Shown here piece by piece: positions 5,270 to 48,719 of a stretch of 54,886 nt of DNA; the stretch's first letter is position 1; every line of letters starts with the position of its first letter. A program made the position numbers and the translations under genes. This stretch comes from Prorocentrum cordatum (lineage: Eukaryota). A model generated the notes under the pieces. The model did not search any database. It worked only from the letters and a program-made list of their open reading frames with translations, and had not been told where the DNA came from. The stretch is taken from contig CAUYUJ010000205.1 of assembly GCA_963575745.1 (NCBI GenBank), forward strand, positions 62,001 through 116,886, read 5' to 3'.

Positions 5270-6403
<1,134 letters not shown>

Positions 6404-15272: not shown

Positions 15273-18200
15273 GGCGACGTGGTGATTAGCACATAGAACG
15301 CGCAGGCCCTCTTCGTGTCGGATCCCACTCGGCGTGGTTTGAAGATGGGGTACGTCCAGCACTTGATGCGCGCGACAGACATCCTCCTTCTGACGGAGTC
15401 ATGGCACCACAGGGGACTTTGCGCTCTGCCGAGCCCTTCATGGCTGCTCATGCTGGTGGTCCGCGGGCCCGACTACAGGGCGCGCCGGGGTGGGGGTCGT
15501 CGTGCGCTCCTCTTTCCTGGACCTCTTCGACTCCCCGCCGGTTTGGTCGGTGATGTGGCGGGGCCGAGCGGCCAAGCTTTCGCTTCGAGGCGCAGCTGGG
15601 GCTCTCGACGCGGTGGTCGTCTATGGTCCCACGGGGTCGCACCTGACTGAGGCGGAGTTATTCGACGTTCGCATGTCGGAGCGCTCCAGGTGCCGCTCCT
15701 TCACTGGTCTGCCGGCTTGCCTCCACGCCAGGGTCGCTGGCAGGCTCACCCCAGCTCGCACTGCCCTCACCTTGCTTGGGGGTGATTTCAATTGCGCCGC
15801 CGAGCCCGGAGGGCGACGAGCGCTGGCCTCGCAGCAGGAGTCGGGAGGGCGGGATCAAGGGGAAGAGCGGCATTTCCGGTCTGCGATCGGTCTGCCTTTC
15901 GATTTGCACGAGATGCACCAGCCAGATTTCACCCACTCTTCGGCGAGCTCGCAGTCTCGAATAGACAGGTGGTGTTGTAATCAATCGGTGTCTGAACAGC
16001 TGGACCGGCACCTCTCCTGCTGTGCACTCCCCTGGAAAGTTGACCTCTCGGCGCACCGCGCGGTCACCTTCGCCCGCCGCGCCCCGCAGCGCGTGCCCGC
16101 GTCGCATCGACCTGTCCCGGAGCAAGCTCTCCAGCACCCAGATCACGCCCAGCGCGTCCATTTAGAAAACGGTGAGCTTCTTCGTCTTCACCCGGGCGAC
16201 GTTGGTGTCCAGAAGCTGAAGCACCTGAAGGCGGCGACGCCGCTGGCTGGCATCTCTCTCGCAGGGGAGCTTTCGAGTTGCCCGCGCGCCGAGGCGCTCG
16301 ACGACAGGCTGGGGGTCACCATCCGCTTCATGCGTTCCTTCGAGCGGGGGCTGCCGGGGCGCATATCTTCGTGCTTGGCCCGCTATCCCAAGCTGCGGGA
16401 TCTTGTCGGCAACCCGTATGACTTCACCGGGAACGTTACAAGCAAGCTGCATCGGGTCTGGGAGCACGCGCTCGAGCTGGCTCGTTCCCACGCGCTGGGC
16501 GAGTTGGGCAAATCGCACCAGGCGCTTCACGGTTCCGTTTCTTTTCAGGCCACAAAAGTAAGAGCTCGCAATAACCGTTTGATTTTTCGACTTCGGCCCG
16601 GACGGTTTGCAACAGTCCATGCGGTGCAGGGCGCGCGGGGGGAGCTACAGACGACGCCAGACGGCATGGCGGACGCCCCTCGCCAGCACTGGGCCGGGGT
16701 CTTCCTCGCGCGGGGCGTCGACGAGGAGAAGTTGTCCGCGTGGTTGGGGGGCGACGCGGACGCCCGTCCGTTGTCACACCTCGCCCCGTTCCCCGCTCGC
16801 AGTTTCCGGCTGCGACAGAAACGCATCAGGTAGGTAATCCGTAGCTCGAACCGCTCTTCGCCAGGGCCAGACGGTCTTCCGTTTTTGGCTTGGAAACAGA
16901 TCGAGAGTTTGGCCACGAGCGTGCTCTACGAGGCGTTCGTGGACATCTGCGGGGAGGACTGGGCTCGTCGGCTTCAGGAGCACGCCCTGGACTTCAACCA
17001 TAGCCTCCTGTTCTTCATCCCGAAGGGCTCGCCGGGGCAGACCGAGGGCGTGGATGCGTTTCACGGCGCCGCGCAGGTGAGGCCATTGAATGTGACCAAC
17101 GCGGACAACCGGCTTCTCGCGAATGCTGTGAGGCTGGTCATCGAAGACGCGGTGGCCGCCAGGGTTTCCCCCGCTCAGCGCGGGTTCCTTCCCGGGCGGT
17201 CCATGCTTGCCAACGTCGTGGGCGCCGACGAGGAGATGGCGGTGCAGTGCGTGGAGGGCACTGGGGCTATGCCCATTTACTTTGACTTTGAGGCCGCGTT
17301 CCCGTCCTTGGAGCACGCCTTCCTCATGCGGCTGTTGCGGCACTTCGGCTGGCCCGGCTGGCTGATCCGCTTTGCGCAGGCGCTGTGCCAGGGCAACTTC
17401 TGCGACATCGCGCTGAAAGGGGTGCGGTGCGAAGGATTCGCGCTCACCCACGGGTTGCGGCAAGGCTGCCCGCTGTCGCCTTTGCCCTTCGCAGTCGCTT
17501 CAGATCTGCTGCTATGCCGGCTCCAGCGCCTCCTGCCCGACGCCGCGATCAGGGCTTGCGCTGACGACCTCGCACTTGTGGCAGCCAGGGTGCTCTCGAA
17601 GCTCCCGCTTCTCCACGAGCTGTTCGACGACTGCGGCAGACTTTCTGACCTCCGCCTCAATATCAAGAAGACTGTGATCGTGCTGGTATTCACCTGCTCG
17701 GTTATGGAGCTCCGCGGAGACATAGCTGCCCAGGCGCCAGCATGGGGGGCCATGGCGATCAAGGACCAGGCGAAATATCTTGGCTTCGTCTTGGGCCCCG
17801 GGGCGGACGAGTCCAGCTGGGAGGCGCCCTTGGGGAACATGTTGGAGCGCGCCAGGACCTGGGGCGGGATTGGGATCGGCCTGTTCCACACGTGCGAGCC
17901 TTTCCGCGTCTTCGTTGCTTCTGTGGTGATGTTCGTTGCCCAGCGTCGCCCTCTCCCTGCCGCATTCGACTAGGTCGAGAAGCGGGTCGGCGCCAAGCTG
18001 TTCCCAGGGCCGGGCTCCTGGGCGCGGCCGGACGTTGTGACCCGCCTTCGGGCTTTGGGATTCCCTTGCGAACTCGTGGATGTTCGCTGCGCCGCATCCG
18101 TCGCGCAGGCCAGAGTCTGCCATCTGGGAGCTTTACAGCAAGGAGGGCTTCAAGCTCTTCCCGGGGCTGCGCGCCTCCGCCGCTTGCTACTGGACCGCGA

Positions 18201-22680: not shown

Positions 22681-23234
22681 CAGCACGAGGTTGCGGCAAT
22701 CATTACCTGCAGCATTCAGCGGCGGCAGCAAGCAACAGCGGGCAGTAGCAAGCGCTGAGTGCGAAGTTCGAGCCCCACGTCAGAATTCCAGCGTGTCGGA
22801 AGCGTGTCCGCCATCACATGCCAGATCGTTCAGCTCGCGTGGACGTAGTCCACGGGCCAGCCCTAGCCAGCTACACCGCGGGGATCAGCACTTGCGGCGA
22901 GCTGCTGCTTGTCCGCGTACCTCTGGCCTGCCTCGGCAAGATCTCGCGGTGACCCGCTTGCGACCTCGTGGACCGCCTGGAGGCGTCCCGTGCCATCCTG
23001 GACAGTCTCGGGGCCCTCTTGTGCCATCTCGGAGCGCCTCGGGAGGGCCCGGGAGCGCACCGGGGCCGGCGGGGCCGATTTGGTCCCACTTGAGGGCCCT
23101 GCCCCCGGCGTTAGAACGTACAGGTGTCCTCCTCGAGTGCAGGGTTGGCTCAATCCGTCCAGGCTCGGGGAGGCGTCAGGCTTGCGATTCTCGAGCGCTG
23201 ACGCCGTTGGCGAAAACAGCCTCCGTGCGGGCCC

Positions 23235-23835
23235 ATGCCGCGGCGAAGGTTGCCCATGGCCGCCGCCGGCTGCGGCGGGGCCGGAGTTGTCCTGTGCTGG
23301 CGCGGCGGGTGCCCTCAGATCCCGACGTCGTGAACAAAACATGTCGGGGCGTTTTTGCTCTGCTTCGGACGCAGGGGCCTTCGACCGGATCAGTCCGAGT
23401 GTGATCTGTCAGGTCATCGTGATCGAGGCCTTCCTAGTCAGGCCTGCGTCTGGGAGGAAGGCCTTCGCCAGGCCCAGGTCGGCCTTTCCAAGTCTCCCCT
23501 CGGCCTACTGGGGCCCTCCCCAGGCCTTCCCTGGGACTACCGAGGCCTTGCCTGGGCCTGCGTCTGCCTGTCCACGACGTCGGATCTCCAGGTGCCCCCA
23601 CGCATCGTTCGTGGGCCCCCCAGCGCTGCGCGGGCGCGCGCTCGGCGCCGCGCCTCTCGCGACAGACGAGGAGCCGGGCGCCGCGGCGGCACCCCCGGCG
23701 GCGGCGCTGGCGGACGGCCTCGCCGCGGCGCCGCTGCTGGGCGGGGCGGCGCTGTGCCTCGGCGCGGTGGCCGCGAGGGGCGCCCGGCGGGCGCGGTCCG
23801 CCGCAGGGCCGAGGGTCGGGCGGCGCTTCTTCAGT
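23235..23835 (+). other. Dinoflagellate class I-type plastid targeting presequence (signal peptide, FVGP motif, second hydrophobic segment, Arg-rich end)
   Basis: Spliced translation [35 protein letters not shown]...[38 protein letters not shown]. Confidence 0.75.
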
Positions 23836-26637
23836 GACCCCATGGATCGCGGGGGCGCCAACTGAAAGGCGAGAAGATGCTGTTCTCCAGCCCGCAGTGC
23901 AGTACTCTAGGGGCCCTCGGAGCGTCTGCTGGCCCTGATCTGGTCTTTCTTGCCCTGCGCTCTGGGCCTGAGAGCTGCGGGTGCATGTCTTGTCTCCGCG
24001 GGGGTCCCCCATGGGCCGCTGGGGCGCCGACCGGTACACCAGCGCCGATCCTCGAAGAAGAATGCATGGACGCAAAGTTTCAGCGAGCTGCGCAGATCTC
24101 TTGAGGTCGGAGCTGGGCCCCCCCTGGCGGCGCCTCCGGCGCCGCCCCTGGCGCGCTCCGTGCGCCAGGGAGGGGGGTTCAGCGGCGATCCAAGAAGTGC
24201 GAGCGGGCCTCCGAGCGGTGATCCTCGTGCGCTCTGTCCTCCTCTGGCTCCTGGCCGGGCGGATCACGGGCCCTGGGTCGGGGCAGGTGCCTTCCTGGCC
24301 GAGGCAGGAAGGCGCGCGCTCCGGTCCCTGGCCCCGGCCAGGCACGGCCAGGGTCGGCAGAGGTGCATCAGTCGGCGCTGTCCGGGAGGAGGCGATGGAG
24401 AGCCTGAACCCGTTCCGGGAGGACCCAGCCGAGAGCACCCGGAAGAGGTACCAGCCGAAGGTCGACGAGATCAACGCGCTCGGCCCATCCCTGAGGGAGA
24501 AGAGTGACGATGAGCTGCGAGAGCTGGCGCTGGAGCTGCGCAGCAGGGCGCAGGGGGGCGAGTCCCTCGAGAGCCTGCTGGCAACATCTTTCGCGCTGGT
24601 GCGTGAGGCTTCCGACCGTGTACTCGGACTGAGGCATTTCGACGTTCAGCTCATAGGTGGGATGGCGCTGCATGAGGGCAACATCGCCGAGATGGGCACG
24701 GGCGAGGGTAAAACCCTCGTAGCCATCCTCCCCGCTTTCCTGAACGCGCTGAGCGGAAAGGGCGTGCACGTGGTCACCGTGAACGATTACCTCGCGCGCC
24801 GCGACGCCGAGTGGGTTGGGCAGCCGCTGCGCTTCCTGGGGCTGGCCGTGGGCGTTGTGCAGGGCCAGATGGCCAGCGATGCGAAGCAGAGGGCCTACCG
24901 CAGCGACGTGACCTACGTGACCAACAGTGAGCTTGGCTTCGACTACCTGCGAGATCAGATGTGCCCTGGCCCGACAGATCTCGCTCTGCGCGCGGAGCAC
25001 CCGTTCCATTTCTGCATCGTGGACGAGGCAGACTATAGGGGTCGACCCAAACGGTGTTTTTTGGCGACTTCCTGGACTGTTTTCGTTCCGACATCGTTTT
25101 GCAGCAGAGGCTGATTGGAGGCAGACGAGGGAGAGCGAAAGCAACACGACAACGAAACACACTTTTTGGGTCGATCCCTGAGGTTGACTCCATCCTCATC
25201 GACGAGGCCCGGACCCCGCTGATCATCTCTGGGACGGCGCAGGACGCGCCAGGCAAGTACCAGGTCGCCCGGGAGGTGGCCAAGAGCCTCAGGAAGGCGG
25301 TGCACTACACCGTTGACGAAAAGCAGAGGCAGTGCGTGCTGGTGGAGGAGGGCGTGGCGGCGGCGGAGCAACTCCTCAACAAGAGCGATCTCTTTGACCC
25401 TGATGACCCCTGGTTCCCCTTCATCGTCAATGCGCTCAACGCGAAAGAGCTGTACATCAGAGACAAACAGTACATCGTGAAAGACGGCGAGGTAAACATC
25501 GTTGACGAGTTCACTGGCCGCGTGATGGAGGGAAGAAGATGGAGCAACGGGCTCCACCAGGCTGTCGAGGCCAAGGAAGAGGTAGATATCCAGGCCGAGT
25601 CGGTGACCCTGGCGTCGATCTCGTACCAGAGCCTTTTCCGCCTCTTTGGCAAACTCGGCGGGATGACGGGCACGGCTTTCACTGAAAAAAAGGAGTTCAA
25701 AGAGATTTACAAGATCGAGGTTGTGGTCATCCCTTCGAACAGACAGCGCATACGGGAGGACAAAGACGACCAGGTGTACGTAGACGATATTGGCAAGTGG
25801 AAGGCGGTGGCAAGGGAAGTGGAACGCGCCCACCGCATCGGCCGCCCAGTGCTCATCGGCACGACCAACGTGGAGAACTCGGAGATCCTCGCGGAGCTGC
25901 TGGACGCCTCGGAGGTGCCCTACAGGCTCCTGAACGCCAAGCCGGAGAATGTCGCCCGCGAGACCGAGATCATCGCAAGCAGCGGGCGCAAGTACGCGGT
26001 CACGATCTCCACGAACATGGCTGGCCGCGGCACCGACATCCTGCTCGGCGGCAACAGCTCGATGATGGCGCGCCTGAAGCTGCGCGAGGAGCTCTTCCCG
26101 AGATTGTTCAAGGCCAAGAGGCAGGCATGGGTCATGCCGGAGGAGTTCTTCCCGGTCGACCTCTCCAAATCTGTCTCCGACAAGGTTCTCAGCATCGTCT
26201 AGCCGATCCCAATCCCCACAGGCATTGGTATCTCAGCCCCACCAACCCACTTCCCCAGGTGGGCATCGCCCCAGTGAAGCCCGAGGATGAGGGGGTGAGT
26301 CGGCCGGTGGGGCCAAGGCCTTGCCAGTGGGGATGGGGATCGGTTAAGCGCTGCTCGAAGGTGCGGGACGCTGTGCGAGCCGCCGTGGCCGAGTGGGCCC
26401 CAGACTCCGCGGAGGAGCTGGCGCCCACGTCCACGGACGCCGCGGCCAAGATCCTTGAGGGCAACCTTACCGAGCTCGAGGCGGACGAGCGTCTGTCGCT
26501 CGCATGCGAGAAGGCCCCCACCGAAGACGAGGCCATCCTGCGTCTCCGCGAGGCCTACAATCTGATGGCCGCGGAGTACAGGGAGGTGACTGACGTCGAG
26601 AAGCGGGAAGTGATCGCGTTGGGCGGCCTCTACGTCC

Positions 26638-26680
<43 letters not shown>

Positions 26681-28259
26681 GAGGGGCCGGTGTTCTCGGC
26701 AGGGAGACCCCGGCGCCACGCGCTTCTTCCTCAGCCTCAACGACCAGATCTTCCGCATATTCGGAGGGGACCAGATCAAGAAAATGGTCTCGGCTATGTC
26801 CTTTTCTGGCTCGGACGACACGCCCCTGGAGTCTGGGCTGCTCTCCAGCTCTCTCGAGGAGGCCCAGAAGAAGGTGGAAAACTATTTTTACAGCGTGCGC
26901 AAGGGGGTCTTCGACTACGACGACGTCATGGACACGCAGAGGAAGATTGTGTACAGCCTGCGCAGGCGCGCACTGCTAGAGGACGACGCCAGCATCCGGT
27001 CCACTCTGGAGGAGTTCTCTGACAAAAACATGAACGACTTCGTCGAGGGGCACGTCGACGTCAAGAAGCCCGTGGAAGATTGGAACCTGGACAAGCTGGC
27101 AGAGAACGTGGGGATCTACTGGACTACCATGCGGGAGACGGTGACGCCCGAGGCCCTGAGGGCTGCCGCGGCTCTGGGCGGCGACGATGGCGTCCGGGCG
27201 GTGACGGCTTACCTGCAGCGGAGTGCCAGGGACGCCTTCTCGCAGAAGTGCACGAGCATCGAGCAGAGTGGTCCTGGGCTGACCGGCATGGTGACGCGCA
27301 GGATCTTGTTGATGCAGCTAGACAACTTCTGGCAGCAGCACCTGAAGAACATGGACTTCCTCAAGAGCAGCGTGACGCTGCGGTCCTATGGCCAGAAAAA
27401 CCCACTGACGGAGTACAAACTTGAGGGCTATCAGATGTTTTTGAAGATGATGTCCAGGATAAGACGCAACTCTGTGTACAACGTTGGTTTGTTCACTCCG
27501 CGCAAGCTTACGAAGATGTCCGAGGAACGCGTGTCCAGCCTCATCCCAAATGCTGAGCAGCGCCAGCAACAGATGTCGGAGATGCTGTCGGGCCCCCATG
27601 GCGAGAAGATAAAGGAGCTCATGGGGATGGGAGACGACCAGGACCCGACGGTACGCACCATCAACCTGGCAAGACTGGCGCTGAACGTTCGGCAGCTGCT
27701 GGACGCGCGGGAGAGCCTGGGGGAGCTGGCCATGGCCAGCTTCAGTGAGCTGAGAGACGGCATGCAGCGTGCTGGCCTCCTCACAGTGGGTGACCAGCTC
27801 AGATGGGCCGCTACCTGCAACGAGTTCGAGCTATTCGAGGACGAGATGGCAGGCGAGGTCTACCTGGCCCTCCGGAAGAGCGAGGAGATCGCCCCGGACT
27901 CGTCCCTGAGCCCCGAGGAGAGGCAGGAGGCCAGGCGTAACTTCATGGTGGCCATGGAGGACCCCGAGTTCCTGCGGACCGTCGGGCAGTTCTCCACCTC
28001 CCCAGACGCCTTCCTGGCCCAGATGAAGGAGGTCGCGGGGGAGCAGGGCTGGACCGCGGAGGACGTCAAGCGCCTGCGCGAGATGTACGCCGCGGCCGGC
28101 GTGAACATCGACGAGGTGATGGCCCAGATGAGCGAGTCGTCCGAGGCCATGCCCCCGGAGCAGAGGGAGGTCGTGGAGTACATGCGGGTGCTGCTCTCGG
28201 GCGACGGCGCGGGTGCGTCCAGCACGGAGAGAGAGGACGCGGGGACGGTGCGGGTCTGA
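23235..28259 (+). CDS. secA: Plastid-targeted preprotein translocase ATPase SecA, ~1280 aa; exons 23235-23308, 23592-~23835, ~24389-25027, 25183-26184, 26361-28259
   Basis: SecA motifs [98 protein letters not shown] and [11 protein letters not shown]. Removing introns 1, 3 and 4 restores the frame exactly. The intron 2 boundaries are approximate. Confidence 0.95.
23309..23591 (+). mobile_element. secA intron 1 (GT-AG, phase 2, 283 bp), Introner/MITE-like
   Basis: Inverted repeat AGATCCCGACGTCGTGAACA (23317-23336) / TGTCCACGACGTCGGATCT (23569-23587). Junction direct repeat GGTGCCCTCA / GGTGCCCCCA. Confidence 0.8.
23836..24388 (+). other. secA intron 2 (~550 bp; exact splice sites unresolved)
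   Basis: Stop at 23863-23865 and a frame change between the presequence and the SecA core. Short inverted repeat GCGCCAACTGA / TCAGTCGGCGC near the ends; ATGGA and TCAGT occur near both junctions. Confidence 0.6.
25028..25182 (+). mobile_element. secA intron 3 (GC-AG, phase 0, 155 bp), Introner/MITE-like
   Basis: Splits the DE|VD Walker B motif. Inverted repeat AGGGGTCGACCCAAA (25037-25051) / TTTGGGTCGATCCCT (25165-25179). Junction direct repeat GAGGCAGAC / GAGGTTGAC. Confidence 0.88.
26185..26360 (+). mobile_element. secA intron 4 (GT-AG, phase 0, 176 bp), Introner/MITE-like hairpin
   Basis: Inverted repeat TAGCCGATCCCAATCCCCACAGGCA (26200-26224) / TGCCAGTGGGGATGGGGATCGGTTA (26322-26346), 22/25 match. 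Inner GCCCCACC/GGTGGGGC pair; AAG|GT at both junctions. Confidence 0.88.
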
Positions 28260-32424: not shown

Positions 32425-32787
32425 GCAATAATAATACGTATGATAACAATAGTAAGAAGAATGCGACTACGAATCATAATCATAAGAGTAAGACTAAGAA
32501 GACAAATACGAATACGGATAATCAGGGTACTAAGAAAATAATAGCAATAATCCGGATAATAATAATAATCATGATAATAATAGTAATATATCTAGTACTA
32601 TTAATACTAATATTAATACTAATAGTAGTAGTAATAATAATAATAACAGCAACAATAATACTACTAATGATAATAGTAATAACAATAATAGTACTACTAC
32701 TAATCATCATACTAATACTAATATTATTATTAATAATAATAATCATACTAATAATACTAATAATAATAATGATAATAATAGTAATAC

Positions 32788-32828
<41 letters not shown>

Positions 32829-33065
32829 TTACTAATACTAACAATGATAATAATAATAATGATAATAATAATAATAATGATAATAATAATAGTAATACTA
32901 TTCGAGCACGAAGAAGAGGAGGAGGAGCAGGAGGAGCAGGAGGAGGAGGAGGAGGAGGAGGAGGAGGAGGAGGAGGAGGAGGAGAGGGGGGGAAGGAGGA
33001 GGAGGAGGAGGCGGAGAAGGAGGAGGAGGAAAACGAAAACGACGACGACGACGACCACGACGGAA
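32425..33065. repeat. Degenerate (AAT)n followed by (GAG)n microsatellite
   Basis: Direct observation. Confidence 0.95.
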
Positions 33066-36499: not shown

Positions 36500-38081
36500 G
36501 TTCTTAACAATAAGCGCGGTACCACGCGAAAGTACCAGACTAAAGTATCAGACTAATGTACTAGACTCATTTATCAGACTAAAGTACCAGACTTATGTGC
36601 CAGACTAAAGTACCAGACTAGAGTACGTACCAGACTGAAGTACCAGACTAAAGTGCCAGACTAATGTACCAGACTAAAGTACCAGACAGATTACTGCGTC
36701 AGACTAGCGGTACCAGAGTAATATACCAGACTGATGAATGTACCAGACTAAAGTACTAGACTAGCGGTACCAGGCTAGCGGCACCAGACAAAAATACCAG
36801 ACTAGCGGTACCAGACAAAAGTGCGAGATTAGCGGTACCAGACTAGCGATACCAGACTAGCGGTACCAGACTAGCGGTGCCAGACTAATGGGCCAGTCTA
36901 GCGGTGCCAGACTAGCGGTACCAGACTAGCGGTGCCAGACTACTGCGCCAGACTAGCGGTACCAGAGTAATGTACCAGACCCATGTACCAGACTAATGTA
37001 CCAGACTAGCGGGACCAGACTAAAGTACCAGACCAGCGGTATCAGACTAGTGGTACCAGGCGTAGCAGACTAACGGCGCCATACTAATGGAGACTAGTGG
37101 CGCCAGACTAATGGCGCCAGACTCATGGCGCCATACTCCGTTAGCGTGGTACCAAACTACTGCACCAGACTGCAGTACCAGATTAATGTACCAGACTAAA
37201 GTGCCAGACTAAGTACCAGGCTATCGGTACCAGACTAATGAACCAGACTAAAGTACTAGACTAGCGGTACCAGACTCAAGTACCAGACTTGCGGTACCAG
37301 ACGAAGGTGGCAGACTACAGTACCAGACTAGTGTGCCAGACTAGTGTAGCAGACCAGTGGCGCCAGACTCATGGTGCCAGATTCACGGCGATGGCGCCGG
37401 ACTAATGGCGCCAGATTAAGGGACCAACGGCGCCAAACTAATGGCGCCACACTAACGGTGCCAGACCAACGGCGCCAGGCCTGTCTAATGGACTGGCAGT
37501 ACCAGGCTGACGGCACCAGACTAGCGGTGCCGTACTACAGTACCAGACTTAAGTATCAGACTAATATACCAGACCAAAGTACCAGACTGAAGTACCAGAT
37601 GAATGTACGAGACTACAGCGCCAGACTAATGGCGCCACACTAAGTGCACTCCGCTAACGGCACCAGACTAGCGGTACCAGACTAACGTACCAGATTAATG
37701 GCGCCAGATTAACGTCACCCGGCTCATGGCACCAGACTAGCGGTACCCGACTCAAATACCAGACGAAAGTACCATATTAAAGTACCAGACTGACGGCGCC
37801 AAGACTACAGGCACCAGACTGACAGCACCAGAGTAGCAGCATCAGACCAAAAACACCAAGTCAGCGTTACCAGACGAGCAGTACCAGACTGAAATACCAT
37901 ATTAACGGCACCATATTCCCAGTGCCAAACTCATGGCGCCAGACCAATGGCAACAGACTGATGGCACCAGGCTCGTGTGGTGCCAGTAGTCTGGTGCATT
38001 AGTTTTGTACATTAGTCTGGTACACGAGTATGGTACATTTGTCTGGTACATTAGTCTGGTACCGCGCTTACGATTAAGAGC
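36500..38081. mobile_element. Foldback-like non-autonomous element made of ~13-15-bp GTACCAGACT(A) tandem repeats with terminal inverted repeats
   Basis: The left end GTTCTTAACAATAAGCGCGGTACCA matches the reverse complement of the right end (GCTCTTAATCGTAAGCGCGGTACCA). The repeats switch orientation at ~37975. Confidence 0.8.
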
Positions 38082-42200: not shown

Positions 42201-43139
42201 CAGGGGCCTCCTCCCCCCACCCAGCCGCCCGCGGCCTCGCCCCGGCGGCGCGCCGCTCACGCTCTTGCAGCCTGCAGGCTGCGCTGCTTCTTGCTGCCAG
42301 TCCTCTGCTTAGCTCCCTGGGCTGCTGTCTGCCCCCCCCCTCGCGCTCGATCTCCAGGGTGGGACCTCCGAGACGATCGCGCCACTGCTCGCCCCGAGGA
42401 TCCCCAGCGCCGTCTCGGCGGGCGCCCTCGTGGCTTCTCTTGCCGCGCCCCCTCCTTTGTGCCGTTGTCGGCGATCCACAGAGGCCCCTCCGTGCCTGTC
42501 GCGCTGGCTCGCGGGCCACCTCTGCTGGCGACTCGCTCTCTGTGCCGTGCTCGCCGGCGCAGCTCCCACTTTCGGGATCGGCCCCGCGCCGCCCCGCCGC
42601 CCGCCGAGCTCTGGCGTGCTCCTGCCTGCTGCCGCACCCCCCCGCCTCGCTGCCCTGCCGCCCCCGCCCGCTGCCTCGCCCGCCGCCGCAGCCCCCGCCG
42701 GTCCGGCTCTGCTGCCTCGCTCGCCGCCCCGGCCCCGCAGACCCGGCGGCTGCCCTGCCGTCGCCCTGCAGAGGGGCCGCCCGCCCGGCGCGCGCGCGGC
42801 TTCCGCGCGGGCGTCCGACGGTGCGGCGAGCCGCCCACCCGCAAGAGCTCGACAGTGTGTGTGTGTGTGTGTGCGATTCAATCTGGCCCGCTTCGCTTCG
42901 ACCGGAAGAGGTGCGCTCTCGACCCGCGGATCAAAAAAGTGTGTGTGTGTGTGCGCATGCGGAAGGAAGGCGCTTCGAACTGCTTGGGGATATGCAGTGG
43001 TGGCCAGGGGATGTGGGAACCGCTGGGGGGCCATTTTCGCCGAGAGGGAGGGCATTCTGATGGCAATTTCTGGCCTGCCTTGTTCATTCTTTCCCGTCTG
43101 GCGCTTTGGAGGGACCGACACAAGAGGTACCAAGAAGAG

Positions 43140-43229
43140 GTGTGTGTGTGTGTGTGTGTTTATGTTTATGTTTATGTTTATGTTTATGTTTATGTTTATG
43201 TTTATGTTTACGTGTGTGTGTGTGTGTGT
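43140..43229. repeat. (TG)n/(TGTTTA)n microsatellite
   Basis: Direct observation; further (TG)n runs at 42855-42873 and 42939-42953. Confidence 0.95.
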
Positions 43230-43276
43230 TCGTAACCCTTTGCCGCAAGCTTTGGGGAGACGCACCGCTGCGCGCT

Positions 43277-46200
43277 ATGGCGCCAGTGGCAGTGTCGCCG
43301 CCGCCTGGTCCAGGGCGCCGCCGCGCGATTGAACACGAAGACGCCCCAGGCCCCTACCTCGTCATTCACGCGGGCGCCGCCGTAAGGCGGACGGCGGCAT
43401 GTTCCACCAACGAGGAAGTGCTCGCTCGGCTGGAGTACGGAGCACGGGTCACAGTGCTGGAGGTCGTCGTGATTCAGGTGACGAGAAGGGTGCGCGGCCG
43501 CATCGAGGATCCCCCAGGGTGGATTACGCTCCGGTGCCTGAAGGACGGTCACCGTTGGGCGAGGCCGTTGGACGACAGTGACCAGCAGGCGCGGCCTGAC
43601 CCTGCGCACCGCAAACGGGCGCCTGTTGATCTCGGTAGAAGTCCTCATGGCCGAGCCGCGCTTGGCTTCTGTGGCAGCCCAGCGCTGCGGCCTAGCTTCA
43701 GTGGCGGTGTTGGCGAGGGGTCCAGTGGCAGCGGGCCCACCACGCCTACGACGTGCGCGAGTGCGTTGCCGTCCGTGGAGGCTTCGCGGCAGGAGATCTT
43801 GCAGCGCCGTCGGCAGCGCGGCTGGGCGTCCTTGGCAGCCGTGCCCGTGGAGGGGACGCCGTCCGCTTCGCTGGGGCCCAGCTCACCGCGGAATGTGGGC
43901 GCGGCGTCCTCTGTAGAGCCGAAGCCCGGGTCGCGGCAGGAGACCTTGAGAGTCCCTCAGCAGCGCGGCTGGGGGTCCTCGGCAGCCATGCCGGTGGCGG
44001 CGTCACCCCCCGCGGAGCTGGTGCCCAGGCCGTCGCAGCGCGAGGGAGCGGCGAACGCCCATGCAGAGATGAACCGCGAGGGGACCGAGCACTCCCCCGA
44101 GCCAGCGTGCCCTGGCGAGGGTCGGTTGCAAGGTCTCAGATCCCAAGAAGGGCACCCGGTGCACGGGCAGTCCGCGGGACCGCAGCAGGAGCACCAGGAC
44201 GAGCTGGAGCGGCTTCGGGTCGAGCACGCGCAGCAGAGCTCGGAGCTCTCTCAGGTGCGCGGCTCTCTAAATGCATCGATTGCCGAGAAGGAGGCGCTGC
44301 ATGAGGAGCTTCGGCAGTTGAGGTCACAGGTCGAGAGGTTGCGGCAGGCGAGGCTTGAGGAAGAAGGGGAGACGGCGTTGCACCCTCGCGGAACAGAGGG
44401 CCCGCGGCAGTCGCAGCCTGGCTCCGCACTGGCTGCCGAGAGCCCGGGGCCCGCGCCTGCTGGGCGCCGTGGCGCCCCTGTGGCGCCCGCTGCGGCGCCC
44501 TTGGCGGGGGAGCCGAAGCCCGTGGGGCAAGCTGGGAGAGCCGGCGAGGACGATGCAGCCCAGGCGGCGCCCGCTGTGGCGCCCGTGGCCCAGGAGGTGG
44601 TGAAGTGCAGCATGAGGGGCAGGCGCAAGGCACCGGAGCAGAAGGCCGCGAGGCGGCCGCAGGCCAAGCGCGAGGTCGACTTCGGCGACCACGACGCTGG
44701 AAAGTGGGTGTTCCCGAGAACGGAGTACGACGGCTCCTACGGCATCATCGGTGGGGCACCGGTGGTTCTCGAGAAGAAGGGTCCGATCCAGGCGGGCTTG
44801 GACCTGCTCAGGCAGGAGCCTCAGAGGTACCTCGGGCTGTGGTACCAGACGGATGTGATGGGGTGGCCCACGGAGCAGCAGCAGTACTCTCTGGTGGAGC
44901 GCAGGAAGCAGAGGATCGTCGTGACGGAGTCCGTTGGGGCACCCTTCACCTACGTCGAGGGCACGTACCACGCCCTGCCGGACTGCCAGGTGCACTGCGA
45001 TCAGTACACCGACCACATGCAGTACGAGGGCGCCCCGTGCACGGCGGGCAAGCAGCCAGGCCGAGGCCAGGGCTGCGCAGACGTGCCGAGCGTGAGCGTC
45101 CTCAGGGATGTGGACCCGAGCGATGTGCTGCAGGGCAGCGTGGGCGACTGCTGGCTGCTCTCCGCCATGTCCGCCCTGGCGGAGTTTCCGGGCGCAGTCA
45201 AGAAGCTGTTCGAGAAGACGCCCGGAATCGAGTCCATGCCGGGCGAGGGCGAGAACAAGTACGTGGTGACGCTGTGCGACCTGAAGACCTGGAAGCAAGT
45301 CGACATCGTGATCGACGAGCGGCTCCCGGGGAACCCCAAAGGCACTGGCCTGCTGGGTTGCGGCCCGAGCGTGTCTGGGGCCCTGTGGGCCCCGTACATC
45401 GAGAAGGCGTGCGCCATCCATTGTGGCGGATGGGACAAGATCAACGGTGGCCAGTGCACGCACGCTTGGCGCATGCTCACGGGCTGCAAGGACCAGTACA
45501 CGTTCGTGCCCGACGCCAGCGGCATGTACGGCTGCTTCGGCGCCCTGAACCCCAACACGGGCAAGTGGGAGGAGCTCGCCAACTCGCCACACGACGGGTT
45601 CCATGGCCTGTGGCCCATGCCGTGGCCCGCTGTGGGCGGCGGCGGCGGCCTGAACCACAAGATCTCAACGGACGAGATGTTTGAGCGCATGTGCGCGTGG
45701 GACGACGAGAACTACATATTGGGCGCGGGCACCAAATCTGGTACGGACACGCACGACACCGACGGCATCGTGGACGGCCATGCCTACACAATCCTCGATT
45801 GCGTCAATGATGCGGGCGGCACAGACTTCGATCTGATCAAGGTGCGGAATCCGTGGGGCCAAGGGGAGTTCAAGTCGGGCATGTGGGACGACGACGGCCC
45901 TGGCTGGTCGCAGTATCCGCAGGTCAAGAAGGCCCTGAATCCTGTGGTGGCCGACGACGGAGTGTTCTGGGTTGACAAGGAAGAGTTCTTCAAGTACTTC
46001 AAGACTATCTACGTTTGCGCGCATAACATGTCTGACTTTATCGGGGCGGCCCCTGTGGCGCCCGCTGCGGCGCCCGTGGCGGGGGAGCCGAAGCCCGTGG
46101 GGCAAGCTGGGAGAGCCGGCGAGGACGATGCAGCCCAGGCGGCGCCCGCTGTGGCGCCCGTGGCCCAGGAGGTGGTGAAGTGCAGCATGAGAGGCAGGCG

Positions 46201-47839
46201 CAAGGCACCGGAGCAGAAGGCCGCGAGGCGGCCGCAGGCCAAGCGCGAGGTCGACTTCGGCGACCACGACGCTGGAAAGTGGGTGTTCCCGAGAACGGAG
46301 TACGACGGCTCCTACGGCATCATCGGTGGGGCACCGGTGGTTCTCGAGAAGAAGGGTCCGATCCAGGCGGGCTTGGACCTGCTCAGGCAGGAGCCTCAGA
46401 GGTACCTCGGGCTGTGGTACCAGACGGATGTGATGGGGTGGCCCACGGAGCAGCAGCAGTACTCGCTGGTGGAGCGCAGGAAGCAGAGGATCGTCGTGAC
46501 GGAGTCCGTTGGGGCACCCTTCACCTACGTCGAGGGCACGTACCACGCCCTGCCGGACTGCCAGGTGCACTGCGATCAGTACACCGACCACATGCAGTAC
46601 GAGGGCGCCCCGTGCACGGCGGGCAAGCAGCCAGGCCGAGGCCAGGGCTGCGCAGACGTGCCGAGCGTGAGCGTCCTCGGGGAGGTGGACCCGAGCGATG
46701 TGCTGCAGGGCAGCGTGGGCGACTGCTGGCTGCTCTCCGCCATGTCCGCCCTGGCGGAGTTTCCGGGCGCAGTCAAGAAGCTGTTCGAGAAGACGCCCGG
46801 AATCGAGTCCATGCCGGGCGAGGGCGAGAACAAGTACGTGGTGACGCTGTGCGACCTGAAGACCTGGAAGCAAGTCGACATCGTGATCGACGAGCGGCTC
46901 CCGGGGAACCCCAAAGGCACTGGCCTGCTGGGTTGCGGCCCGAGCGTGTCTGGGGCCCTGTGGGCCCCGTACATCGAGAAGGCGTGCGCCATCCATTGTG
47001 GCGGATGGGACAAGATCAACGGTGGCCAGTGCACGCACGCTTGGCGGATGCTCACGGGCTGCAAGGACCAGTACACGTTCGTGCCGGACGCCAGCGGCAT
47101 GTATGGCTGCTTCGGCGCCCTGAACCCCAACACGGGCAAGTGGGAGGAGCTCGCCAACTCGCCACACGACGGGTTCCATGGCCTGTGGCCCATGCCGTGG
47201 CCCGCTGTGGGCGGCGGCGGCGGCCTGAACCACAAGATCTCAACGGACGAGATGTTTGAGCGCATGTGCGCGTGGGACGACGAGAACTACATATTGGGCG
47301 CGGGCACCAAGTCTGGTACGGACACGCACGACACCGACGGCATCGTGGACGGCCATGCCTACACAATCCTCGATTGCGTCAATGATGCGGGCGGCACAGA
47401 CTTCGATCTGATCAAGGTGCGGAATCCGTGGGGCCAAGGGGAGTTCAAGTCGGGCATGTGGGACGACGACGGCCCTGGCTGGTCGCAGTATCCGCAGGTC
47501 AAGGAGGCCCTGAATCCTGTGGTGGCCGACGACGGAGTGTTCTGGGTTGACAAGGAAGAGTTCTTCAAGTACTTCAAGACTATCTATGTTTGCGCGCATA
47601 ACATGTCTGACTTTATCGGGGCGGCCCCTGTGGCGCCCGCTGCGGCGCCTGTGGCGGAGGAGCCGAAGCCCGTGGGGCAAGCTGGGAGAGCCGGCGAGGA
47701 CGATGCAGCCCAGGCGGCGCCCGCTGTGGCGCCCGTGGCCCAGCGGGTGGTGGACGCCGCGATCCGGATCCAATCGTTGTTCCGGGGGATGAGCGCGAGG
47801 ACGGCTGTCAGAGAGCATCGCGATCTGGAATCTTGGTAG
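43277..47839 (+). CDS. Calpain-family cysteine protease with two tandem CysPc domains, N-terminal SH3-like domain, coiled coil and C-terminal IQ motif (1520 aa, intronless)
   Basis: Uninterrupted ORF from ATG 43277. The catalytic triad motifs QGSVGDCWLLSA, GHAYTIL and KVRNPWG each occur twice; WAPYIEKA and DDGVFW motifs are present; IQSLFRGMSAR at 47768-47800. Confidence 0.92.
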   Translation: MAPVAVSPPPGPGRRRAIEHEDAPGPYLVIHAGAAVRRTAACSTNEEVLARLEYGARVTVLEVVVIQVTRRVRGRIEDPPGWITLRCLKDGHRWARPLDDSDQQARPDPAHRKRAPVDLGRSPHGRAALGFCGSPALRPSFSGGVGEGSSGSGPTTPTTCASALPSVEASRQEILQRRRQRGWASLAAVPVEGTPSASLGPSSPRNVGAASSVEPKPGSRQETLRVPQQRGWGSSAAMPVAASPPAELVPRPSQREGAANAHAEMNREGTEHSPEPACPGEGRLQGLRSQEGHPVHGQSAGPQQEHQDELERLRVEHAQQSSELSQVRGSLNASIAEKEALHEELRQLRSQVERLRQARLEEEGETALHPRGTEGPRQSQPGSALAAESPGPAPAGRRGAPVAPAAAPLAGEPKPVGQAGRAGEDDAAQAAPAVAPVAQEVVKCSMRGRRKAPEQKAARRPQAKREVDFGDHDAGKWVFPRTEYDGSYGIIGGAPVVLEKKGPIQAGLDLLRQEPQRYLGLWYQTDVMGWPTEQQQYSLVERRKQRIVVTESVGAPFTYVEGTYHALPDCQVHCDQYTDHMQYEGAPCTAGKQPGRGQGCADVPSVSVLRDVDPSDVLQGSVGDCWLLSAMSALAEFPGAVKKLFEKTPGIESMPGEGENKYVVTLCDLKTWKQVDIVIDERLPGNPKGTGLLGCGPSVSGALWAPYIEKACAIHCGGWDKINGGQCTHAWRMLTGCKDQYTFVPDASGMYGCFGALNPNTGKWEELANSPHDGFHGLWPMPWPAVGGGGGLNHKISTDEMFERMCAWDDENYILGAGTKSGTDTHDTDGIVDGHAYTILDCVNDAGGTDFDLIKVRNPWGQGEFKSGMWDDDGPGWSQYPQVKKALNPVVADDGVFWVDKEEFFKYFKTIYVCAHNMSDFIGAAPVAPAAAPVAGEPKPVGQAGRAGEDDAAQAAPAVAPVAQEVVKCSMRGRRKAPEQKAARRPQAKREVDFGDHDAGKWVFPRTEYDGSYGIIGGAPVVLEKKGPIQAGLDLLRQEPQRYLGLWYQTDVMGWPTEQQQYSLVERRKQRIVVTESVGAPFTYVEGTYHALPDCQVHCDQYTDHMQYEGAPCTAGKQPGRGQGCADVPSVSVLGEVDPSDVLQGSVGDCWLLSAMSALAEFPGAVKKLFEKTPGIESMPGEGENKYVVTLCDLKTWKQVDIVIDERLPGNPKGTGLLGCGPSVSGALWAPYIEKACAIHCGGWDKINGGQCTHAWRMLTGCKDQYTFVPDASGMYGCFGALNPNTGKWEELANSPHDGFHGLWPMPWPAVGGGGGLNHKISTDEMFERMCAWDDENYILGAGTKSGTDTHDTDGIVDGHAYTILDCVNDAGGTDFDLIKVRNPWGQGEFKSGMWDDDGPGWSQYPQVKEALNPVVADDGVFWVDKEEFFKYFKTIYVCAHNMSDFIGAAPVAPAAAPVAEEPKPVGQAGRAGEDDAAQAAPAVAPVAQRVVDAAIRIQSLFRGMSARTAVREHRDLESW
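44474..47743 (+). repeat. In-frame 1575-bp tandem duplication (units start 44474, 46049; partial third at 47624)
   Basis: GCCCCTGTGGCGCCCGCTGCGGCGCC recurs at an exact 1575-nt spacing; only about 11 differences seen by eye between the two full units. Confidence 0.97.
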
Positions 47840-48170: not shown

Positions 48171-48719
48171 CCCCCCTCAAGCATCATCGTCGGCCGGTTT
48201 TCGTGCCATACGTAGTGTCTCTGGCGGTCGTTCGGGACAATCCGGGCACCCCCGCGGACGATTCTCGGCAAGGCGCAGCCACTGCAACGCATCCCGAGGC
48301 AGGGAATCTTGCGAGAACCGAGGAAGACGGTCGAAAGCCTCGAGCCTGGAAACGGAACCTCCCCAATTCCCCCCTTGGGCGCGCCGACGAAGCACAGCTC
48401 AGCCCCACCCGCGCCAGCGAGGCGCGGCGGACCCTGCATCCTGGGCACCTGCGGTACGGCCGCCCATGGCATCTCAGGGGCAACGTTGGGGGGGATATGT
48501 TCAGGGGCGGATGTGGTCAGGGGGGGACGGTTCGAGGTTCGAGGTTCGAGGTTCGAGATTTTCGGGCGTTTTTGTCGGTTATCTGTGGTTGTCCAGCCTC
48601 GGGCTGCTCCAGCGGCTGCGCCTCGCCGAGGGCGTTCTCGGGCTGCCTGGACCGTCCCGAACGGCCGCCAGAGGCCCCAGTTGTGACCCGAAAACCACTT
48701 GGGACAGGCTCAGGGGGGG
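48171..48719. repeat. Long diverged inverted repeat (arms ~48171-48374 and ~48520-48719)
   Basis: CTCTGGCGGTCGTTCGGGAC pairs with GTCCCGAACGGCCGCCAGAG; CTCGGCAAGGCGCAGCC pairs with GGCTGCGCCTCGCCGAG; both arms are bounded by C6/G6 runs. Confidence 0.8.

What the first reader, a model, noticed from the sequence alone, without database searches (positions are those of the whole stretch)
23309..26360. Introns of secA look like distinct TIR hairpin transposons (a multi-family Introner gene)
Seen: introns 1, 3 and 4 each have 15-25-bp terminal inverted repeats just inside the splice sites, plus short direct repeats spanning both junctions; intron 2 has a weaker 11-bp inverted repeat. The four TIR sequences are unrelated to each other. 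Known: Introners are MITE-like elements that create spliceosomal introns, and they are reported in dinoflagellates. Inference: an intronless secA was colonised by up to four independent Introner families whose splice sites derive from the duplicated target, so splicing removes one target copy and leaves the protein unchanged.
Basis: partly seen in the sequence, partly recalled or inferred. Interest (0 to 1): 0.8.

Follow-up and report, generated by a model that had tools for sequence, protein, structure and literature searches.

The report
Hairpin introns in a dinoflagellate secA
Three of the four short introns in this dinoflagellate's plastid secA gene are self-folding hairpin inserts of a kind already catalogued genome-wide for this species, so it is a clean example and not a new phenomenon.

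Summary
The region is the nuclear, plastid-targeted secA of Prorocentrum cordatum; the spliced model equals a public 1288-aa protein. Transcript contigs from 4 runs show all four junctions: intron 1 23309-23591 (GT..AG), intron 2 23845-24388 (GA..AG), intron 3 25028-25182 (GC..AG), intron 4 26185-26360 (GT..AG).

Introns 1, 3 and 4 carry terminal inverted repeats far above chance (P 0.003, 0.002, <0.0003). All four introns fold end to end (z -4.3 to -6.6). Intron 2 has only a 10/11 repeat (P 0.03) and contains a very high-copy hairpin repeat.

The junction direct repeats are mostly what the G|GH...AG|G splice consensus gives. Only intron 1's 7-mer stands out (P 0.024).

The claim of independent multi-copy Introner families could not be shown. 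No genome is held, the 54.9-kb window has no second copy, and the collection scans gave only chance hits.

Dougan et al. 2023 already scanned this genome for exactly this pattern and found introner elements in 2.4% of introns and 8,934 genes. Verdict: real, probably MITE-like intron-creating inserts, already known in kind, low interest.

The parts
23235..28259 (+). Nuclear gene for plastid-targeted SecA, 5 exons, 1288 aa. The N-terminal presequence is exons 1-2.
   Evidence: Translation. Pfam SecA_DEAD, SecA_PP_bind, P-loop_SecA and SecA_SW. Identical to P0002, named Prorocentrum cordatum by its source.
23309..23591 (+). Intron 1, 283 nt, GT..AG, phase 2. The 7-nt junction repeat is GGTGCCC.
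   Evidence: Joint in 3 of 4 RNA runs. Ends pair in the fold, z -4.75.
23317..23336 (+). Intron 1, left inverted-repeat arm. It pairs with 23569-23587.
   Evidence: P 0.003 against pseudo-introns.
23569..23587 (+). Intron 1, right inverted-repeat arm.
23845..24388 (+). Intron 2, 544 nt, GA..AG, phase 0. It is composite, with a weak terminal repeat 23855-23865 / 24368-24378 (10 of 11).
   Evidence: Joint in 3 of 4 runs with 3-nt ambiguity. IR P 0.029. Fold z -4.34.
24088..24222 (.). Nested palindromic repeat inside intron 2, a diverged copy of a very high-copy family. Bounds are approximate.
   Evidence: Depth 1981-24844 in bin 24116-24239. At place 24161, 71-115 contigs per run carry another letter. 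Loose ends share a consensus. Two look-alike ORFs, P0123 and P0124; P0124's best stretch covers query residues 49-78, roughly 24154-24243 on the - strand by my own arithmetic.
25028..25182 (+). Intron 3, 155 nt, GC..AG, phase 0, inside the DEVD motif. It is a whole-length hairpin.
   Evidence: Joint in 4 of 4 runs. Fold z -4.89, 0 of 200 shuffles as good.
25037..25061 (+). Intron 3, left arm. It pairs with 25155-25179 (25 nt, 84%).
   Evidence: P 0.002.
25155..25179 (+). Intron 3, right arm.
26185..26360 (+). Intron 4, 176 nt, GT..AG, phase 0. It is a whole-length hairpin.
   Evidence: Joint in 4 of 4 runs from contigs with 0 other letters. Fold z -6.60.
26191..26224 (+). Intron 4, left arm. 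It pairs with 26322-26355 (34 nt, 82%).
   Evidence: 0 of 3000 pseudo-introns reach its score.
26322..26355 (+). Intron 4, right arm. Look-alike RNA contigs cover it.
   Evidence: At 26321, 1, 9, 1 and 4 contigs in the four runs, all with a letter other than the window's.

Best explanation
These are four genuine spliceosomal introns in the nuclear, plastid-targeted secA of Prorocentrum cordatum.

Introns 1, 3 and 4 are 'introner-element'-type introns. Almost the whole intron is a short, non-coding, self-complementary insert that is foreign to the locus.

Most likely each arose when a small non-autonomous, MITE-like hairpin DNA element inserted at a G|GH site in continuous coding sequence. The arms can be extended to 5'-CT(N1-3)AG...CT(N1-3)AG-3'. 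On that reading the element's last AG serves as the 3' splice site. The 3-5 nt in front of the element (GTGCC, GCAGA, GTT) repeat the start of the next exon (GTGCC, GTTGA, GTG) and supply the GT/GC 5' splice site. Splicing then removes the element plus one target copy and restores the frame. The terminal pairing also brings the two splice sites together.

Intron 2 (GA..AG) is a composite with only weak terminal pairing. It later received, or was built around, a copy of a high-copy hairpin repeat.

Shown: the introns and junctions, the inverted repeats, the hairpin folds, exact restoration of SecA, and the absence of the insert sequences elsewhere in the window.

Inferred: transposition, target duplication, membership of multi-copy families, and timing.
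For: - RNA joints for all four introns, and agreement with the public protein P0002.
- Inverted repeats placed 3-10 nt inside both splice sites, P 0.003, 0.002 and <0.0003 for i1, i3 and i4.
- All four introns close end to end when folded, z -4.3 to -6.6, with no shuffle folding as well.
- The spliced protein is colinear with dinoflagellate, green-algal and cyanobacterial SecA at i3 and i4.
- No similarity of i1, i3 or i4 to the rest of the window beyond 12-17-nt words.
- The CT...AG arm ends are listed. The layout [short repeat starting GH][CT...AG ending at the 3' splice site] matches what Roy et al. describe for Symbiodinium ILEs (section 3, read).
- Hairpin repeats do occur in many copies in this organism. 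The nested element in intron 2 matches 71-115 RNA contigs per run, and the i4 right arm is covered by 1, 9, 1 and 4 non-identical contigs.
- GATC is enriched in the introns: 12.95 per kb against 3.5 per kb in the window.
- Dougan et al. report IEs in 2.4% of P. cordatum introns and call them non-autonomous DNA transposons. By my own arithmetic from that rate, three or more of four introns in one gene has a binomial chance of about 5e-5.
Against: - No second copy of i1, i3 or i4 in 54.9 kb.
- The interior of i1 has depth 0 in all 4 RNA runs.
- The junction direct repeats are not above the splice-consensus expectation for i2, i3 and i4 (P 0.447, 0.195, 0.086).
- On the CT...AG reading, the putative target copies match 5/5, 3/5 and 2/3, and their lengths differ.
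- Arm identity is only 82-93%, so the inserts are not very recent.
- Whether the paralogue (P0003) or orthologues share these intron positions is unknown.
- The published IE introns average 3.4 kb. These are 155-283 nt.
- The contigs over the i4 arm are short, roughly 50 nt by depth, and could come from a few loci.
Confidence: 0.55

Rival explanations
1. One reading: each of three or four introns is a copy of a separate multi-copy Introner family, each present in many unrelated genes, with true target-site duplications.
For: Arms are unrelated in sequence. There are some look-alike contigs for the i4 arm, and a clearly multi-copy nested element in i2. Multi-family Introner gain is documented in Polarella and Amoebophrya.
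Against: No copy in the window. The direct repeats are mostly at consensus level. The nested high-copy element is internal to intron 2 and not at its splice sites.
Confidence: 0.3
2. The hairpins are unique, non-family palindromic inserts. They would be filler or foldback DNA captured during double-strand-break repair, or the product of an unknown mechanism, and not transposon copies.
For: Each intron is unique in the window. [quoted passage not shown] The window also holds another unique 501-nt foldback at 48196-48696.
Against: The arms are not inverted copies of neighbouring exon DNA, so simple snap-back synthesis from the flank is not supported. The shared CT...AG ends and GATC enrichment hint at a common machinery.
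Confidence: 0.2
3. These are older introns whose terminal pairing evolved or was kept by selection because it brings weak GA/GC/GT donors next to the acceptor. The repeats are a splicing aid and not a scar of insertion.
For: The pairing sits 3-10 nt from both splice sites in all four introns. The donors are non-canonical in two of the four.
Against: Introns 3 and 4 are self-complementary along their whole length, far more than is needed to bridge the ends. Compensatory evolution cannot be tested without relatives.
Confidence: 0.1
4. Chance or a mis-modelled gene.
For: The window contains about a dozen other spaced inverted repeats of similar score.
Against: The repeats sit exactly at RNA-confirmed intron ends. 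The positional test gives P <=0.003 three times.
Confidence: 0.02

Closest known systems
Introner elements (IE) as defined by Farhat et al. 2021 (Amoebophrya, PMC7789003) and applied to P. cordatum by Dougan et al. 2023 (PMC10666404)
   Same: An inverted repeat of 8-20 nt and a direct repeat of 3-5 nt within 30 nt of both intron ends, with a hairpin fold. It is the same genome that was scanned.
   Different: Here three of four introns of one gene qualify, against 2.4% of introns genome-wide. They are 155-283 nt against a mean of 3.4 kb for published IE introns. I could not open the published gene list (Table S1, file too large), so I cannot say whether this gene is on it.
Introner-like elements of Symbiodinium and Polarella (Roy et al., 10.1101/2020.10.14.339549)
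   Same: A layout of a short repeat starting GH that gives the 5' splice site, then an element with inverted repeats ending at the 3' AG. GT/GC/GA donors. GH after the acceptor. Several unrelated families in one genome.
   Different: Those are defined by many similar copies; here copy number is unproven. The apparent repeat lengths are 5, 5 and 3 nt, not a fixed 4 or 8.
MITEs (non-autonomous TIR DNA transposons)
   Same: Short, non-coding, with terminal inverted repeats and a hairpin-forming shape.
   Different: No fixed-length target duplication and no family could be shown.
Mirtron-like hairpin introns
   Same: Introns 3 and 4 are single hairpins about as long as the intron.
   Different: The stems start 3-9 nt inside the splice sites, the introns are 155-176 nt long, there are no small-RNA data, and there is no Rfam match.

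Membership tests
Introner element (pattern-defined; Farhat 2021 / Dougan 2023) | Lies in an RNA-supported spliceosomal intron | tested here: met
   Joints in 3-4 of 4 runs for each intron.
Introner element (pattern-defined; Farhat 2021 / Dougan 2023) | Inverted repeat of 8-20 nt within 30 nt of both intron ends | tested here: met
   Met for i1, i3 and i4: read from the arm sequences, their exact complementary cores are about 11, 10 and 8 nt. i2 has only 10 of 11 with a mismatch, so it qualifies only if mismatches are allowed.
Introner element (pattern-defined; Farhat 2021 / Dougan 2023) | Direct repeat of 3-5 nt across the exon/intron boundaries | tested here: met
   Repeats of 7, 3, 4 and 5 nt. 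Only the 7-mer exceeds the splice-consensus expectation.
Introner / ILE (family-defined transposon; Roy, Gozashti) | Many similar copies forming introns in unrelated genes | tested here: inconclusive
   None in the window. No genome is held. The i4 arm has 1-9 look-alike contigs per run and the i1 interior has none. Collection and protein look-ups were uninformative.
Introner / ILE (family-defined transposon; Roy, Gozashti) | Target-site duplication flanking the element, supplying a splice site | tested here: inconclusive
   Candidate copies match 5/5, 3/5 and 2/3 (read). The exact junction repeats are mostly at consensus level.
Introner / ILE (family-defined transposon; Roy, Gozashti) | Intron absent at the same site in relatives (recent gain) | not testable with these tools
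   Only proteins and spliced transcripts of the paralogue and orthologues were reachable.
MITE | Terminal inverted repeats, no coding capacity, small size | tested here: met
MITE | Fixed-length target duplication typical of a superfamily | tested here: inconclusive
   The lengths differ between introns under either reading.
SecA (the host gene) | SecA DEAD, preprotein-binding, P-loop and wing/scaffold domains | tested here: met
   Pfam E-values 1e-30 to 1e-80.

The most novel reading that the evidence does not exclude
Every intron of this otherwise uninterrupted, organelle-derived gene was created de novo by hairpin-element insertion. At least three sequence-unrelated elements were involved, sharing only CT...AG ends and GATC-rich arms. 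That would point to one structure-directed, not sequence-directed, mobilisation machinery that is or recently was active in P. cordatum and prefers intron-poor genes.
Probability: 0.15. Interest if true: 0.5.

Novelty: already known. Interest (0 to 1): 0.22.

Why it matters
It is a compact, RNA-verified textbook example of how hairpin elements can sit as introns in a conserved gene without changing the protein.

It could serve as a test locus for whether the terminal pairing is needed for splicing, and for dating intron gain against the 90%-identical paralogue.

It does not open a new question. The element class, its presence in this genome, and multi-family intron gain in dinoflagellates are all in print.

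Tried and rejected
- Whole-genome search: no genome is held for this window.
- In-window BLASTN of each intron: only 12-17-nt words. The 15-nt i4 hit at 17866-17880 lies inside a reverse-transcriptase ORF and is chance.
None of the 142 loci fetched extends beyond 21 nt, so all are chance.
- Viral scans: the same 17-mer gave 22 chance hits. Longer or two-arm patterns for i4, i3 and i1 gave 0.
- Protein-database look-ups of intron translations, used as a proxy for copies:
  - i4 (58 aa): no candidate.
  - i1 (93 aa): 1 hit, a low-complexity repeat protein.
  - Whole intron 2 (181 aa), used as a positive control: 2 weak hits, of which P0124's best stretch lies over the nested repeat's right arm by my own conversion of residues to bases.
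  - Even a known high-copy element gave only these hits, so the negatives say little.
- i3 was not tested this way.
- Relic spliced-leader motif (recalled 21-mer): 0 matches at up to 3 mismatches, so no retrogene signal was found.
- Rfam on 23000-26700: only 2 sub-threshold matches.
- Earlier findings of this scan: nothing.
- Self-BLAST of intron 2 gave little.
- Parts of the introns without RNA cover are not taken as evidence of single copy.
- The Dougan Table S1 and S2 spreadsheets could not be read (too large).

Full report
**What is there**

The window is GC-rich eukaryotic DNA. Region 23235-28259 (+) encodes a SecA with an N-terminal presequence.

- Long open frames carry SecA_DEAD, SecA_PP_bind, P-loop_SecA and SecA_SW.
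- Joining five exons gives an uninterrupted protein.
- That protein is letter-for-letter the public 1288-aa protein P0002, which its source names Prorocentrum cordatum.
- A second copy about 90% identical, P0003, exists in the same species.

**Are the introns real?**

Contigs of four public runs were laid at 80% likeness. One run is labelled RNA; the other three behave like RNA.

| Joint | Skips | Runs | Reading |
|---|---|---|---|
| 23307>23591 | 283 | 3 of 4 | GT..AG, 7 letters ambiguous |
| 23843>24388 | 544 | 3 of 4 | 3 letters ambiguous; the only splice-like reading is GA..AG, 23845-24388 |
| 25024>25180 | 155 | 4 of 4 | read as GC..AG, 25028-25182 |
| 26181>26358 | 176 | 4 of 4 | GT..AG, from contigs with 0 other letters |

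All four runs also hold the roughly 10%-divergent paralogue transcript. It is colinear at the same junctions.

A few other joints are not splice-like, and I leave them unexplained:
- 23284>23678 and 23767>24385, in one run only.
- 25229>25998, in all four runs, with a 41-letter side.
- 25239>26616, in one run only.

The first two probably reflect poor alignment of the paralogue's divergent presequence.

**Inverted repeats**

Each intron's first 45 nt was aligned to the reverse complement of its last 45 nt and compared with 3000 random same-length pseudo-introns from the window.

| Intron | Score | Fraction of pseudo-introns as high |
|---|---|---|
| i1 | 13.5 | 0.0030 |
| i2 | 8.5 | 0.0287 |
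| i3 | 15 | 0.0020 |
| i4 | 19 | 0 of 3000 |

- The arms start 6-10 nt inside the donor and end 3-10 nt before the acceptor.
- Folded as RNA, all four introns close end to end, with z -4.75, -4.34, -4.89 and -6.60. No shuffle folded as well.
- Introns 3 and 4 are single hairpins over their whole length.
- A census of the window finds about a dozen other non-microsatellite spaced inverted repeats of comparable score. The point is therefore their exact placement at intron ends, not their mere existence.

**Direct repeats**

The exact junction repeats are GGTGCCC, GGA, GAGG and AAGGT.

Dinoflagellate introns have G before the donor, GH at the donor, and AG|GH at the acceptor. Roy et al. note the conserved GH after the acceptor. 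I therefore conditioned the null on G|GH...AG|G sites. Repeats at least as long then occur with frequency 0.024 (7 nt), 0.447 (3 nt), 0.195 (4 nt) and 0.086 (5 nt). Only intron 1 stands out. The target-duplication reading is compatible with the data but not demonstrated.

**Anatomy**

Printing the arms shows that all six arms of i1, i3 and i4 can be extended over a 1-3-nt bulge to CT...AG:
- CTCAG / CTGGAG
- CTATAG / CTCAG
- CTCAG / CTTCGAG

On this reading the element ends with the acceptor AG. The 5, 5 and 3 nt in front of it (GTGCC, GCAGA, GTT) repeat the start of the next exon (5/5, 3/5, 2/3).

This is the layout Roy et al. describe for Symbiodinium elements: a short duplicated target giving the donor, CT next, and inverted repeats ending at the acceptor. 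It rests on three cases and is my inference.

- Arms of different introns do not align above chance.
- GATC is enriched in the introns: 15 in 1158 nt, against 3.5 per kb in the window.

**Intron 2**

Intron 2 is different.
- Its terminal repeat is weak.
- The donor region is repeated 169 nt downstream at 84% over 25 nt.
- Its middle (about 24088-24222) is a palindromic element whose core drew depths of 1981-24844.
- At place 24161, 71-115 contigs per run carry another letter, and the loose ends share a consensus resembling the window's own flanks.
- This is a diverged copy of a very abundant hairpin repeat. It shows that such elements are multi-copy in this organism, but it is not at the splice sites.

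**Is each intron a member of a family?**

This is the crux, and it stays open.
- No genome is held.
- The window has no second copy.
- In the RNA contigs, the interior of i1 has no cover.
- The right arm of i4 is covered by 1, 9, 1 and 4 contigs, all differing from the window at 26321. That suggests other loci, but the matches are short.
- The metagenome and viral scans gave only chance matches.
- Protein-database look-ups of intron translations were negative for i1 and i4.
- The positive control, intron 2 with its known abundant repeat, gave only two weak hits. That method is therefore insensitive.

**Consequences for the protein**

The spliced product is colinear with 15 other SecA proteins at i3 and i4, cyanobacterial ones included. 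Intron 3 splits the invariant DE|VD.

**Comparison with what is known**

- Dougan et al. 2023 (PMC10666404). I saw passages, Table 2 and the Supplementary Note; I could not open Tables S1 and S2.
  - They scanned all introns of this genome for inverted repeats of 8-20 nt plus direct repeats of 3-5 nt within 30 nt of the ends.
  - They found such introner elements in 2.4% of introns and 8,934 genes.
  - They interpret them as non-autonomous DNA transposons.
  - Genome means are 9.8 introns per gene and 4,709 bp per intron.
- This gene has four introns of 155-544 nt in a 3.9-kb coding sequence. It is intron-poor, and its introns are almost only of this type. At 2.4% per intron, three of four has a binomial chance of about 5e-5 (my arithmetic; the criteria may not be identical).
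- Farhat et al. 2021 (passages) defined the pattern in Amoebophrya and noted that most such introns could not be put in families.
- Roy et al. (section 3) and Gozashti et al. 2025 (passages) document many Introner families per genome and many gains per gene.
- A search for 'Prorocentrum' plus 'introner' listed 6 of the 7 papers that hold both terms; I opened only Dougan et al. and the 2024 review among them, and only Dougan et al. treats this genome's introner elements.

**Verdict**

The class is already known for this very genome, and the multi-family claim remains to be tested against the full assembly.

Noticed in passing
window 48196-48696: A 501-nt whole-length foldback (self-complementary score 53; RNA fold of 48217-48673 has z -11.2). 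It lies about 360 nt downstream of the calpain-like ORF and is unrelated in sequence to the secA introns. Whether it is an intron or an intergenic element is unknown.
   Followed up: partly
window 24088-24222 (inside intron 2): A diverged copy of a very abundant palindromic repeat. At place 24161, 71-115 RNA contigs per run carry another letter. There are two look-alike ORFs, P0123 and P0124, from short public contigs.
   Followed up: partly
window 43061-47839: A 1592-aa uninterrupted ORF with calpain (Peptidase_C2) domains in two stretches, and two identical 27-nt palindromes 1575 nt apart (45219-45245 and 46794-46820). This suggests a tandem-unit gene without introns.
   Followed up: no
window 15394-17973: LINE-like retroelement ORFs on the + strand: endonuclease/exonuclease/phosphatase, then reverse transcriptase.
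   Followed up: no
window 37150-38065: Arrays of GTACCAGACT-type short repeats facing each other in inverted orientation, forming a large foldback.
   Followed up: no
window 5740-6400 and 32550-32900: Long TTG/CAA and TAA-type microsatellites arranged as inverted blocks.
   Followed up: no
window 24555-26700 (transcripts): A second secA transcript about 10% divergent is present in all four runs and matches paralogue P0003. That gene model is fused to a rhomboid domain, which is probably a merged annotation.
   Followed up: partly
window 25229 and 25998: A joint that skips 768 nt inside exon 4 is seen in all four runs (depth 32-210, 41-letter side, ends TG..GC). It is not splice-like and is unexplained.
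   Followed up: no
window 23838-23862 and 24007-24031: The donor region of intron 2 is repeated 169 nt downstream inside the intron (25 nt, 84%). This hints at a duplication during the growth of this composite intron.
   Followed up: no
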